64,000 bases of DNA from Escherichia coli (GTDB taxonomy: Bacteria; Pseudomonadota; Gammaproteobacteria; Enterobacterales; Enterobacteriaceae): assembly GCF_030013205.1 (NCBI RefSeq), contig NZ_CP122648.1; one strand, 5' to 3'. Position 1 is the stretch's first letter. Every line of letters starts with the position of its first letter. Positions 58,301 to 61,300 of the stretch are shown piece after piece. The position numbers are program-made.

Positions 58301-61300
58301 TCGTTCAGCTGCGTGCCTAATTCCGCGCGAATAGTCAGCACATTGTTCAGCGAGTTTTTCAGTCCGCGGTTGGTTTTATCCAGTGCCGCAGCGGCGGTTT
58401 CTTTATCCGCTTCGCTATCCGCGACCGGCGTTTTCAGGGCTGCGATGGCGCTATCCAGCATGGCAAAAAGATTGGTTTCAGAAGCGCTACCGTCTGGTTC
58501 CGCTACCGCGTTGCTGGTAATACTGTCGAAAATTTTGTCACCCGTGTGCCCTATCACCATCGAACGCGAAGCATCGACCTGTTGTTTAATACTTTCTGCT
58601 CCGCCAACATATTCGCCGTCTGCCTCACTAAACGGCGCAGTTTCTGTTTTATAACCGGCAAAAATGTAGCGCCCGTTACCATCAGTGGTGTTCGCCAGAT
58701 TCAGTAACTGGTCACGAAGCCCCTGAATATCCGTAGCCAGCGAGGCCCGGTCATCGTCACTCAAGGTGCCATTGCTGGCGTAGACAATTTTTTCCTGAGC
58801 ATTCTGGATAGCGGTGGTGACCTGGCTAAGTACACTCTCTTCCAGTGACACTTTTTGAGTGGCGAAAGTACGCGCCAGCGTGTACTGGCTGTTTTGCGCC
58901 TGTGCCTGGGAGAGAACAACAGCTTGTGATGCAGCAATGGGATCATCTGAAGGGTTAACGACTCGCTTACCCGTCGATATCTGTTCGCCGTACTTCATCC
59001 ATTCTGCCTGAGAATTGGTGATGCCGCGCATGTTTTGCTGGTACATCATCTGGGTACTGAAACGCATTTTATCTCCCCTTAGCGAATGTTAATCAGCGCA
59101 TCAAAAATCGCGTTTGCCGTCTGCAGAACCTGCGCATTCGCGAGGTAATACTGCTGAAAACGTTGCAGATTTCCGTACTCCTCATCGAGATTGACACCGG
59201 AAATCGACTGCTGCTGATTGGAAAGCTGCGTCACCACATTACCTTGCGTGGTGCTACTGGTTTTCAACGTCGCGGTTTTATTACCGATATCACTCACTAA
59301 CGAGGCATAAGCGTCGTTAAAGGATTTCGCACCGCCCACCGTTTTACTGTTGCTTTGCAGATCGAGCAGGGCCTGACCGTTGCGGTTGTCGCTATCACCC
59401 GCATCTTCTGCGCTCGCCATGGCGATTTTCGCTTCGTCGGTGATTAATACATCCATGTTGACGATGGCGTCACTTACCGGTTTCAGTGTGAAGCTGTCGT
59501 TAACGGCAGGCGTTCCTGTAAACGTCAACTCCAGACCATCAAATGCCACTTTACCGTTGGCATCCGGCGTCACCGTAAAAGTGGTATTACTGGCAAGGCG
59601 GGTGACCTGCCACTGATTATTATCGAACGAGATTTTGTAATCTGTCGCCAGTACCGCTGAGGCATCAGTTACCGTGGCACCGATCGCAACGTCACCTTTG
59701 TTTTTCGTGTTTTGCAGAACCGCGGGCTTACCGATAGCAAAGAAATCTTCACCGGCATCGCCGTTAGCATCAAATCCGGCTTTGTGTTGGGTGTTGAAAG
59801 CCTCGGCAAATGCCAGCGCCAGTTGTCCAAGCGTATTACGCGTCTGGTCAAGATCCTGAGAACGGAATGTCAGAATGCCGCCCAGCGACCCGGTATTCAG
59901 TAATTTCTCCGGGATCTCAATATTGCCTGCCGTCCCATCAACATAAGCGACAGTCGTACGAGAAGGGTCGGCGCTGGAAGGAACTGCCGCAAGTTGCCGC
60001 GCCGTACTTCCCTGAACCAGTGAGTAGCCATTGGCCATCGTGATGTTATAAGTGCCACCATCCTGAACGCTGACTTCTACGCCAACAATCTGGTTTAATT
60101 CGCTCACCAGTTGATCGCGTTGATCCAGCAGATTGTTAGGTGACGCCCCTGCCCCCACGCCTGTCAGGCGGGAGATCTGATCGTTCAGGCTGGCGATTTG
60201 TTTAGCGTAATTGTTGATCTGATCAACGCTGGCACCTATCGCGATATTGACCTGTTTGTCCTGGTCGCGCAGATATTGATCGGTGGTTTTAAACTGATTC
60301 ACCAATCCTTCTGATTTCCCAATCAGCGCCTGGCGCGCTGCCGGATCTTCCGCGTTACTCACCAGCGTTTGCAGGCTGGTGAAGAAATCCTGCATCTGTG
60401 TTGCCAGCGAAGAGGTACTGGTGGAGAGCATATTGTCGATTTTCGACATCTGCTCATAGCGGGCGGTCAGGCCGCTACTTTGCGTCTGCGCAGCACGTAA
60501 CTGGTTGGTAATAAACGCATCATACTCACGCTGCACACCAGAAACGTAGACGCCATTGCCAACCCAGCCGCCAGCGCCCAACGTGCTATTGGCCTGCGCC
60601 ATAATAGTGGTTTGGCGGGTATATCCGGCAACGTTATAGCTGGAGATATTATTACTTGCCGTATTTAACGCCGCCTGGGCCGCGTTCAGTCCGCTCATGG
60701 CGTTATTGATCAAGCTGGACATGGAGGTTCCTTATAAGCCTTCAATTACAGAGTATTATCGGCAGCGCCCCGCCGGACTTGAGTTATTCAGAACAGATTA
60801 TCAATGTTCATGCTGTAGGTTTTGCTCACCTTGTCGCTTATCGATTTCATCTGCTGAATCATGTTGGTGAGTTTGCGGGCATAGTGAGGATCGGTGGCAT
60901 AGCCCGCGTCCTGTAGGGCCTGCGCCCCCTGCTCCGCACTCGCGGCGGTCGTCACGGCGGCGTAGCGCGGGTTACGCGTTAACAGCCCAACGTAATCCGA
61001 CAATGCTTCCAGATACGAGCTGTAGACCCGAAACTTCGCTTTTACTTTCTTCGCTTCGCCATTTTCATATTCAGTCGTGGTGATTTCAGTGACTGGCCCT
61101 TTCCAGTTGCCAGAGGCTTTGACACCAAACAGGTTATAGCTCGGCTCGCCGTTTTCACGGCGGATTTGCCGTTGTCCCCAGCCAGATTCCAGCGCCGCCT
61201 GAGCGAGGATCAAATGATGTGGCACACCACTTTGCTGGCTTGCCAGTTGGGCTGGCAGCGAGAGTTGCGCGAGGAATGCTTTACTGTCACCCGGCAGCGA

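What the first reader, a model, noticed from the sequence alone, without database searches (positions are those of the whole stretch)
60723..60787. Internal sigma-28 promoter in the flgJ-flgK spacer
Seen in sequence: on the minus strand the 65-bp spacer contains GCCGATAA (+ strand ttatcggc at 60756..60763) preceded after 11 nt by TCAAGTCC. Established knowledge: FliA class-3 promoters have consensus TAAAGTTT-N11-GCCGATAA, and flgKL is known to be expressed both from the upstream class-2 promoter and from its own class-3 promoter. Inference: this is the flgKL class-3 promoter; the weak -35 suggests dependence on read-through and FliA together.
Basis: partly seen in the sequence, partly recalled or inferred. 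Interest (0 to 1): 0.2.

Follow-up and report, generated by a model that had tools for sequence, protein, structure and literature searches.

The report
Known FliA promoter of flgKL

Summary
On the minus strand, TCAAGTCC (60782..60775), an 11-nt spacer and GCCGATAA (60763..60756) lie in the 65-nt flgJ-flgK gap of an E. coli chromosome. This is the published class-3 (sigma-28/FliA) promoter of flgKL. The K-12 sequence, which differs by one spacer base, is a strong FliA ChIP-seq site (rank 10 of 52) and the second-highest RpoF genomic-SELEX peak. A Cappable-seq start in EDL933 maps to window 60747 and the RegulonDB start to 60749, which is 9 and 7 nt after the -10 element. No terminator, sigma-70 consensus or unusual RNA fold lies in the gap, which fits published read-through from the class-2 flgB operon. 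In 118 species, 110 keep both boxes upstream of flgK, against 0 of 118 in controls. The boxes are conserved, while the spacer, the flanks and the distance to the ATG vary. Window-wide the motif score is not above chance; its position, conservation and the published experiments carry the case. Novelty: already known. Interest is low.

The parts
60788..61729 (-). flgJ coding sequence, the last gene of the class-2 flgBCDEFGHIJ operon; stop codon TGA at 60790..60788.
   Evidence: ORF list; NCBIfam TIGR02541 FlgJ, E 3e-131. RefSeq annotates a 942-nt flgJ at the identical junction in strain CFSAN061763.
60775..60782 (-). -35 element TCAAGTCC of the sigma-28 promoter, matching 5 of 8 positions of TAAAGTTT.
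   Evidence: Sequence. Part of the FliA ChIP-seq motif for flgKL. TCAAGT is conserved in 108 of 118 species; mean 1.47 bits per column.
60764..60774 (-). 11-nt promoter spacer GGCGGGGCGCT. Its length is conserved and its sequence is free to vary.
   Evidence: Mean 0.26 bits per column across species. K-12 and EDL933 have T where the window has its fourth G.
60756..60763 (-). -10 element GCCGATAA, an exact match to the consensus.
   Evidence: Exact in 100 of 118 species and within 1 mismatch in all 118; mean 1.88 bits per column.
60747..60749 (-). Transcription start. A60747 corresponds to the EDL933 Cappable-seq start; G60749 corresponds to the RegulonDB K-12 start, 27 nt before the ATG.
   Evidence: PMC10469882 supplement 6 lists a start at 1585195 and the start-to-ATG distances K-12 27 / EDL933 25. 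I mapped these onto the EDL933 sequence.
60723..60746 (-). Remainder of the short 5' UTR, with the Shine-Dalgarno sequence AAGGAA at 60732..60727.
   Evidence: Sequence. AAGGAAC before the ATG is conserved across genera.
59079..60722 (-). flgK, hook-filament junction protein 1.
   Evidence: NCBIfam TIGR02492, E 2e-101; annotated as flgK in 5425 E. coli genomes.
58114..59067 (-). flgL, hook-filament junction protein 3 and second gene of the operon.
   Evidence: NCBIfam TIGR02550, E 7e-105.
58037..58113 (-). flgL 3' UTR ending in an intrinsic terminator (stem 58072..58044 followed by a run of seven T). It matches the position and size of the published sigma-28-dependent, Hfq-bound sRNA FlgO.
   Evidence: Terminator scan and sequence. 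PMC10578931 describes FlgO as about 75 nt, processed from the flgL 3' UTR and fliA-dependent.

Best explanation
This is flgKp, the class-3 (late) promoter of the E. coli flgKL operon. RNA polymerase carrying the flagellar sigma factor FliA (sigma-28) recognises TCAAGTCC (-35) and GCCGATAA (-10), separated by 11 nt. It starts transcription 7-9 nt downstream, at about 60749..60747 on the minus strand. The transcript is about 2.7 kb and has a 25-27 nt leader. It covers flgK and flgL and ends at the terminator after flgL, whose 3' UTR is processed into the sRNA FlgO. No terminator lies between flgJ and flgK, so the same genes are also transcribed by read-through from the FlhDC-dependent class-2 flgB promoter. 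The result is a dual input. Class-2 read-through supplies FlgK and FlgL during first assembly. Once the hook-basal body is complete and exports the anti-sigma factor FlgM, free FliA adds FlhDC-independent transcription. Shown here or in print: the sequence, FliA binding, the start position, co-transcription and conservation. Inferred: the physiological division of labour. The repair and swarming role comes from Salmonella work that I know only as cited in PMC4183435.
For: The sequence and coordinates are and the gene identities. For MG1655, the FliA ChIP-seq peak has a fold-above-threshold score of 47 with the motif TCAAGTCCGGCGGGTCGCTGCCGATAAT assigned to flgKL. flgK expression falls from 318 to 138 in delta-fliA. 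RT-PCR crosses the flgJ-flgK boundary. fliA overexpression in delta-flhD restores flgK expression (PMC4183435). RpoF holoenzyme genomic SELEX gives a peak of 27.2 between flgJ and flgK, and that paper states flgK transcription was shown in vitro to be under direct RpoF control (PMC5493296). flgK changes -5.5-fold on fliA deletion and +2.2-fold 5 min after FliA induction (PMC1935009). The EDL933 Cappable-seq start at 1585195 is an A 9 nt after GCCGATAA and 25 nt before the ATG; RegulonDB gives 27 nt. The gap has no terminator or sigma-70 consensus, no unusual fold (z = -0.18) and no Rfam match. Across species, 110 of 118 carry the two boxes at N11 upstream of flgK, against 0 of 118 in reverse-complement and shuffled controls. 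Information content is 1.47 bits per column in the -35 and 1.88 in the -10, against 0.26 in the spacer and 0.25-0.43 in the flanks. The distance from the -10 element to the ATG ranges from 30 to 92 nt. The junction is kept in 5421 of 5426 complete E. coli genomes. FlgO is sigma-28-dependent and processed from the flgL 3' UTR, and the terminator lies at 58072..58044.
Against: The motif alone is not distinctive. It ranks 4th by PWM in the window, and a 21.9-bit site at 17963..17990 outranks it yet is not a reported FliA site. All experimental data come from K-12 or EDL933, whose promoters differ from the window by one spacer base (T instead of G); nothing was measured in this strain. I found no experiment in the held literature showing that the mapped start itself disappears in a fliA mutant. 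Under the conditions used by Fitzgerald et al., delta-fliA lowers flgK only about 2.3-fold, so the promoter's contribution in wild-type cells can be minor.
Confidence: 0.97

Rival explanations
1. The promoter is real but intrinsically weak because of its poor -35 (TCAAGTCC). It would then contribute meaningfully only on top of class-2 read-through.
For: The -35 has three mismatches to TAAAGTTT. The PWM score of 15.85 bits is in the lower third of known sites. Across the 52 ChIP sites, more -35 mismatches go with lower occupancy (Spearman -0.39). delta-fliA lowers flgK only from 318 to 138 in Fitzgerald et al..
Against: The ChIP fold-above-threshold score of 47 ranks 10th of 52 and is the highest among sites with three -35 mismatches. 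The site is the second-highest RpoF SELEX peak, obtained with holoenzyme alone. fliA overexpression in delta-flhD restores flgK to wild-type level or higher without read-through. TCAAGT is the conserved state in 108 of 118 species, so it is under selection rather than degenerate.
Confidence: 0.15
2. The conserved block is mainly an RNA-level element of the read-through flgB-to-flgL transcript, such as a processing site or a translational control element for flgK, and its resemblance to a sigma-28 promoter is secondary.
For: The gap is transcribed as part of the long operon (RT-PCR). A small hairpin, CGGCGG/CUGCCG, is predicted over the promoter spacer.
Against: The fold is no better than shuffles (z = -0.18; 80 of 200 shuffles fold at least as well). 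The hairpin-forming spacer bases are the least conserved columns, at 0.26 bits. The conserved columns coincide exactly with the two sigma-28 boxes at fixed 11-nt spacing. There is no Rfam match. FliA binds the DNA in vivo and in vitro.
Confidence: 0.02
3. The motif is a chance match with no function.
For: Window-wide the match is within chance expectation. GCCGATAA occurs 9 times in the window.
Against: About 2e-4 matches are expected in the 65-nt gap, using the rate. Conservation is 110 of 118 against 0 of 118 in controls. Published ChIP-seq, SELEX, start-site and expression data also argue against it.
Confidence: 0.01

Closest known systems
flgKp, the class-3 sigma-28 (FliA/RpoF) promoter of flgKL in E. 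coli K-12 and Salmonella. Sources: Fitzgerald et al. 2014 (PMC4183435); Kutsukake & Ide 1995 and Wozniak et al. 2010, both known to me only as cited there.
   Same: Same locus and same -35 and -10 boxes, with the same 11-nt spacing, distance to the ATG and downstream genes. The 28-nt motif is identical to the MG1655 ChIP-seq motif except at one spacer base.
   Different: Only the spacer allele differs: GGGGCGCT in the window, GGGTCGCT in K-12 and EDL933. The window's 81-nt junction is identical in 434 of 5421 E. coli genomes.
Other dual class-2/class-3 flagellar operons: flgMN (within flgAMN), fliDST and fliAZY.
   Same: Each has a FliA promoter downstream of, or overlapping, an FlhDC-dependent sigma-70 transcription unit. 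In each, expression falls little in delta-fliA but collapses in delta-flhDC.
   Different: flgKp sits in a true intergenic gap after the last gene of a nine-gene class-2 operon. Its -35 starts TCAAG, whereas flgMN, fliDST and tar start TAAAG or TAAAC.
The motA promoter inside flhC, a conserved intragenic FliA promoter (Fitzgerald et al. 2017/2018; bioRxiv 10.1101/188474).
   Same: It is a FliA promoter placed at the 3' end of an upstream flagellar transcription unit. It is broadly conserved and also yields an sRNA (MotR).
   Different: It lies inside a coding sequence and constrains FlhC codons. flgKp is intergenic, starting 5 nt after the flgJ stop codon, so no coding constraint explains its conservation.

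Membership tests
Sigma-28 (FliA) class-3 flagellar promoter | A -10 element matching GCCGATAA. | tested here: met
   Exact GCCGATAA at 60763..60756 on the minus strand.
Sigma-28 (FliA) class-3 flagellar promoter | A -35 element resembling TAAAGTTT, placed 11 nt upstream of the -10 element. | tested here: met
   TCAAGTCC at exactly N11 matches 5 of 8 positions. The same TCAAG start occurs in the ChIP-verified fliL site, and TCAAC in the modA site.
Sigma-28 (FliA) class-3 flagellar promoter | Sense orientation, immediately upstream of a late flagellar gene. | tested here: met
   The -10 element ends 33 nt before the flgK ATG on the same strand, and FlgK and FlgL are confirmed.
Sigma-28 (FliA) class-3 flagellar promoter | A primary transcription start a few nucleotides downstream of the -10 element. 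| tested here: met
   I mapped the published EDL933 Cappable-seq coordinate 1585195 onto the sequence. It is an A, 9 nt after GCCGATAA and 25 nt before the ATG. RegulonDB gives 27 nt. The data come from EDL933 and K-12, not from this strain.
Sigma-28 (FliA) class-3 flagellar promoter | Binding by FliA holoenzyme and FliA-dependent transcription. | not testable with these tools
   Literature only: ChIP-seq score 47, SELEX 27.2, and -5.5-fold on fliA deletion and +2.2-fold on FliA induction by microarray. All concern the K-12 allele, which differs by one spacer base.
Sigma-28 (FliA) class-3 flagellar promoter | Phylogenetic conservation of the two boxes but not of the spacer or flanks. | tested here: met
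   110 of 118 species against 0 of 118 in controls. Boxes carry 1.47 and 1.88 bits per column, against 0.26 for the spacer and 0.25-0.43 for the flanks.
Overlapping class-2/class-3 operon (flgB-J read-through into flgKL) | No transcription terminator between flgJ and flgK. | tested here: met
   No terminator-like site in 60500..61000, and the fold is no better than shuffles. Published RT-PCR crosses the junction.
Sigma-70 housekeeping promoter | TTGACA-N16-18-TATAAT-like hexamers in the gap. | tested here: not met
   No site in 60500..61000 on either strand.

The most novel reading that the evidence does not exclude
The non-consensus C at -35 position 2 is itself under selection. The box reads TCAAGT, usually preceded by C, in 108 of 118 species, while other class-3 promoters read TAAAG. 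This would set a specific strength or timing for flgKL relative to other class-3 promoters, or overlap a binding site for a second, unidentified factor. On this reading flgKp is a tuned sub-class of sigma-28 promoter rather than a weak copy.
Probability: 0.15. Interest if true: 0.25.

Novelty: already known. Interest (0 to 1): 0.05.

Why it matters
The promoter lets the cell make the hook-filament junction proteins FlgK and FlgL, and the sRNA FlgO, independently of the master regulator once the hook-basal body is complete. Salmonella work cited in PMC4183435 links this to swarming and the repair of sheared flagella. Nothing here changes that picture. The case also shows the limits of motif scoring. 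The true promoter ranks only 4th by PWM in the window, and a better-scoring site inside ymfA is not reported as bound.

Tried and rejected
Window-wide significance was rejected as an argument: neither the consensus match nor the leave-one-out PWM exceeds chance over 128 kb of search space. Only the position in the gap, the conservation and the published experiments carry the case.

Alternative features in the gap were looked for and not found. The terminator and sigma-70 scan was empty. The RNA fold gave z = -0.18. The Rfam search at E <= 1 gave only sub-threshold hits near flgL and rne, none in the gap, and no FlgO family.

Several sources of start-site data led nowhere. Thomason 2015 (PMC4288677) and Wozniak 2010 (PMC2937404) are not held. 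The Ettwiller 2016 and SMRT-Cappable-seq supplements had no flgK or coordinate match in the stored text. The Rend-seq paper has no stored supplements. PMC8527033 and bioRxiv 450098 mention flgK but give no start site. The EDL933 Cappable-seq supplement finally supplied a coordinate.

I did not use the protein-homology, structure-prediction or metagenome tools. The genes are unambiguous and the question concerns DNA.

Full report
**What is in the sequence**

Read on the minus strand, flgJ ends with TGA at 60790..60788. A 65-nt gap follows at 60787..60723, and flgK starts with ATG at 60722. The gap reads ATAAC-TCAAGTCC-GGCGGGGCGCT-GCCGATAA-TACTCTGTAATTGAAGGCTTATAAGGAACCTCC.

- TCAAGTCC lies at 60782..60775.
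- The 11-nt spacer lies at 60774..60764.
- GCCGATAA lies at 60763..60756.

NCBIfam equivalog models identify the surrounding ORFs as FlgI, FlgJ, FlgK and FlgL. The 701 bases around the junction are 100% identical to E. coli strain CFSAN061763 and are present in 5425 of 5426 complete E. coli genomes, always annotated flgJ | flgK. The window is therefore an E. coli chromosome.

**Is it more than chance?**

Taken over the whole window, it is not.

- The consensus TAAAGTTT-N11-GCCGATAA with up to three mismatches gives two hits against 0.64 expected, and 14 of 100 shuffles do as well.
- I built a position weight matrix from 24 other experimentally defined FliA sites (Fitzgerald et al. 2014, Table 2, fold-above-threshold score above 4, flgKL left out).
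- That matrix scores this site 15.85 bits, 4th in the window. The best hit in random 64-kb sequences averages 14.6 +/- 2.1 bits.

Position changes the picture. At the rate, about 2e-4 matches are expected among the 39 possible start positions of the gap on the flgK strand.

**Conservation**

I scanned one genome per species with a degenerate DNA pattern anchored on the FlgK N-terminal codons, so the search was blind to the promoter. It returned 120 loci from more than 20 genera of Enterobacteriaceae, Erwiniaceae and relatives. Of these, 117 had 200 nt of upstream sequence.

- Including the window, 110 of 118 carry a -10 element within one mismatch of GCCGATAA and, exactly 11 nt upstream, a -35 within three mismatches of TAAAGTTT.
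- None of 118 do so in the reverse complement of the same 200 nt or in shuffled versions.
- When the sequences are aligned on the -10 element, mean information is 1.47 bits per column in the -35 and 1.88 in the -10. It is 0.26 in the spacer and 0.25-0.43 in the flanks.
- The distance from the -10 element to the ATG ranges from 30 to 92 nt.

This is the footprint of a two-box promoter. It is not the pattern of an RNA structure or of residual coding sequence. [quoted passage not shown] Within E. coli, the 81 nt spanning the gap are kept at 90% identity or more in 5421 of 5426 genomes.

**Published experiments on the same element**

- Fitzgerald et al. 2014 (PMC4183435) list an MG1655 FliA ChIP-seq peak with a fold-above-threshold score of 47. 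Its motif, TCAAGTCCGGCGGGTCGCTGCCGATAAT, is assigned to flgKL and differs from the window at one spacer base.
- The same paper shows by RT-PCR that flgKL is also transcribed from the upstream FlhDC-dependent flgB operon.
- It reports that flgK falls from 318 to 138 normalised units in delta-fliA.
- It reports that fliA overexpression in delta-flhD restores flgK to wild-type level or above.
- Shimada et al. 2017 (PMC5493296) found an RpoF-holoenzyme genomic-SELEX peak of 27.2 between flgJ and flgK. Only the rpoF promoter itself scored higher.
- Zhao et al. 2007 (PMC1935009) measured flgK at -5.5-fold on fliA deletion and +2.2-fold five minutes after FliA induction.

**Transcription start**

The supplement of an EDL933 Cappable-seq study (PMC10469882) lists a primary start at 1585195 for flgK. 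It also gives the start-to-ATG distances as 27 nt (K-12, RegulonDB 10.5) and 25 nt (EDL933).

I fetched the EDL933 sequence. Position 1585195 is the A in CTCTGTAATT, 9 nt after GCCGATAA and 25 nt before the ATG at 1585220. In window coordinates this is A60747, and the RegulonDB start is G60749.

I could not find a held paper showing directly that this 5' end disappears in a fliA mutant. That link therefore rests on the binding and expression data.

**What else is in the gap, and the transcript made**

The gap holds no terminator-like site and no sigma-70 consensus. Its fold is no better than shuffles (z = -0.18), and it has no Rfam match. The absence of a terminator fits read-through.

Downstream, flgL ends at 58114. 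A 12-bp G+C-rich hairpin at 58072..58044, followed by a run of seven T, closes the operon. The 77-nt 3' UTR matches the published FlgO, an sRNA of about 75 nt that binds Hfq, depends on sigma-28 and is processed from the flgL mRNA (PMC10578931). FlgO is thus a further product of this transcription unit.

**Mechanism**

The first four points are shown by sequence or by published experiment; the last is established knowledge of the cascade.

- FliA holoenzyme binds the two boxes.
- Transcription starts at 60749..60747.
- The transcript covers flgKL and FlgO.
- The same genes are also reached by read-through from the class-2 promoter.
- FliA is held inactive by FlgM until the hook-basal body exports FlgM, so this promoter fires late and independently of FlhDC.

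Inferred: the adaptive reason for the dual input. Fitzgerald et al. attribute to Salmonella work (Wozniak et al. 2010, not held here) the idea that the class-3 promoter supports swarming and rapid repair of sheared filaments.

The evidence does not bear this out.

- Across the 52 ChIP sites, more -35 mismatches do go with lower occupancy (Spearman -0.39).
- Even so, flgKp ranks 10th of 52 and is the highest of the six sites with three -35 mismatches.
- It is bound by holoenzyme alone in vitro.
- It drives wild-type levels of flgK without read-through when FliA is abundant.
- TCAAGT is the conserved form in 108 of 118 species, so the C at position 2 is maintained rather than decayed.

Whether that C tunes strength is the only open point, and it is a small one.

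**Verdict**

The feature is already known and of low interest.

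Noticed in passing
window 17963..17990 (-), antisense inside ymfA (ORF 17558..18061 +): TAAAAATAACGCCCATAATGCCGATAAA is the best sigma-28 PWM match in the window, at 21.9 bits against 15.85 for the real flgK promoter. The 28-mer is identical in MG1655 (NC_000913.3 1181335..1181362). It is absent from the 52 FliA ChIP-seq sites of Fitzgerald 2014, and ymfA, ycfZ and potD are not mentioned in the main text of Shimada 2017. It may be unbound in vivo or below the peak-calling threshold.
   Followed up: partly
whole window; GCCGATAA at 17964, 20574, 20988, 22856, 44808, 45680, 47448, 57089 and 60756: The exact octamer GCCGATAA occurs 9 times against about 2 expected from dinucleotide-preserving shuffles, and none of 100 shuffles reach 9. 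Only the flgK copy and the ymfA copy have a -35-like box at N11 within three mismatches. The excess is probably codon-driven (GCC-GAT = Ala-Asp), but I did not test this.
   Followed up: no
window 60768 (-), promoter spacer: The window has G (GGCGGGGCGCT) where K-12 and EDL933 have T (GGCGGGTCGCT). Only 434 of 5421 E. coli genomes are 100% identical over the 81-nt junction, so the window's exact junction sequence is held by a minority of genomes; the spread sample suggests most differ at one base. The base lies in the non-conserved spacer, so an effect is not expected.
   Followed up: partly
window 58037..58113 (-): The flgL 3' UTR carries a strong intrinsic terminator (stem 58072..58044, then a run of seven T). 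It corresponds in position and size to the published sRNA FlgO. No Rfam family matched it, and a convergent terminator for rne lies at 57938..57961 (+).
   Followed up: partly
loci L011, L024, L032, L038, L041, L052, L076 and others (Pantoea, Erwinia, Mixta), upstream of flgK: In Erwiniaceae the flgK leader is much longer, with about 75-92 nt from the -10 element to the ATG. It contains well-conserved blocks (…CTGATGACTGCCAGCCCGGTTAACGGGAAAT.AAGGAACCGAGATG) and what look like paired GC-rich segments that are absent from Escherichia. This could be a leader structure or regulatory element.
   Followed up: no
L001 6082..6701 (E. coli CFSAN061763), compared with window 57919..58114: The strain whose flgJ-flgK junction is 100% identical carries a GNAT-toxin/TacA-antitoxin pair immediately after flgL. 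In the window, rne follows flgL after about 195 nt. The flgL-rne gap is therefore a variable insertion point among E. coli strains.
   Followed up: no
window 35285..35312 (-) and 45186..45213 (+): Two further sigma-28-like PWM hits score 17.7 bits each: TCAACAATTTATCAGGCTGGCCGATGAC and TACAGAATTGTCGCATAATGCCGTTAAC. Both score above the flgK promoter, and their context was not examined.
   Followed up: no
loci L055 and L073 (labelled Enterobacter cancerogenus and Enterobacter ludwigii): Their flgK upstream regions are of the Pantoea type, with a long leader and CACTTAAGCAC in the promoter spacer, rather than the Enterobacter type. This suggests mislabelled or contaminated assemblies, or a second flagellar locus.
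   Followed up: no
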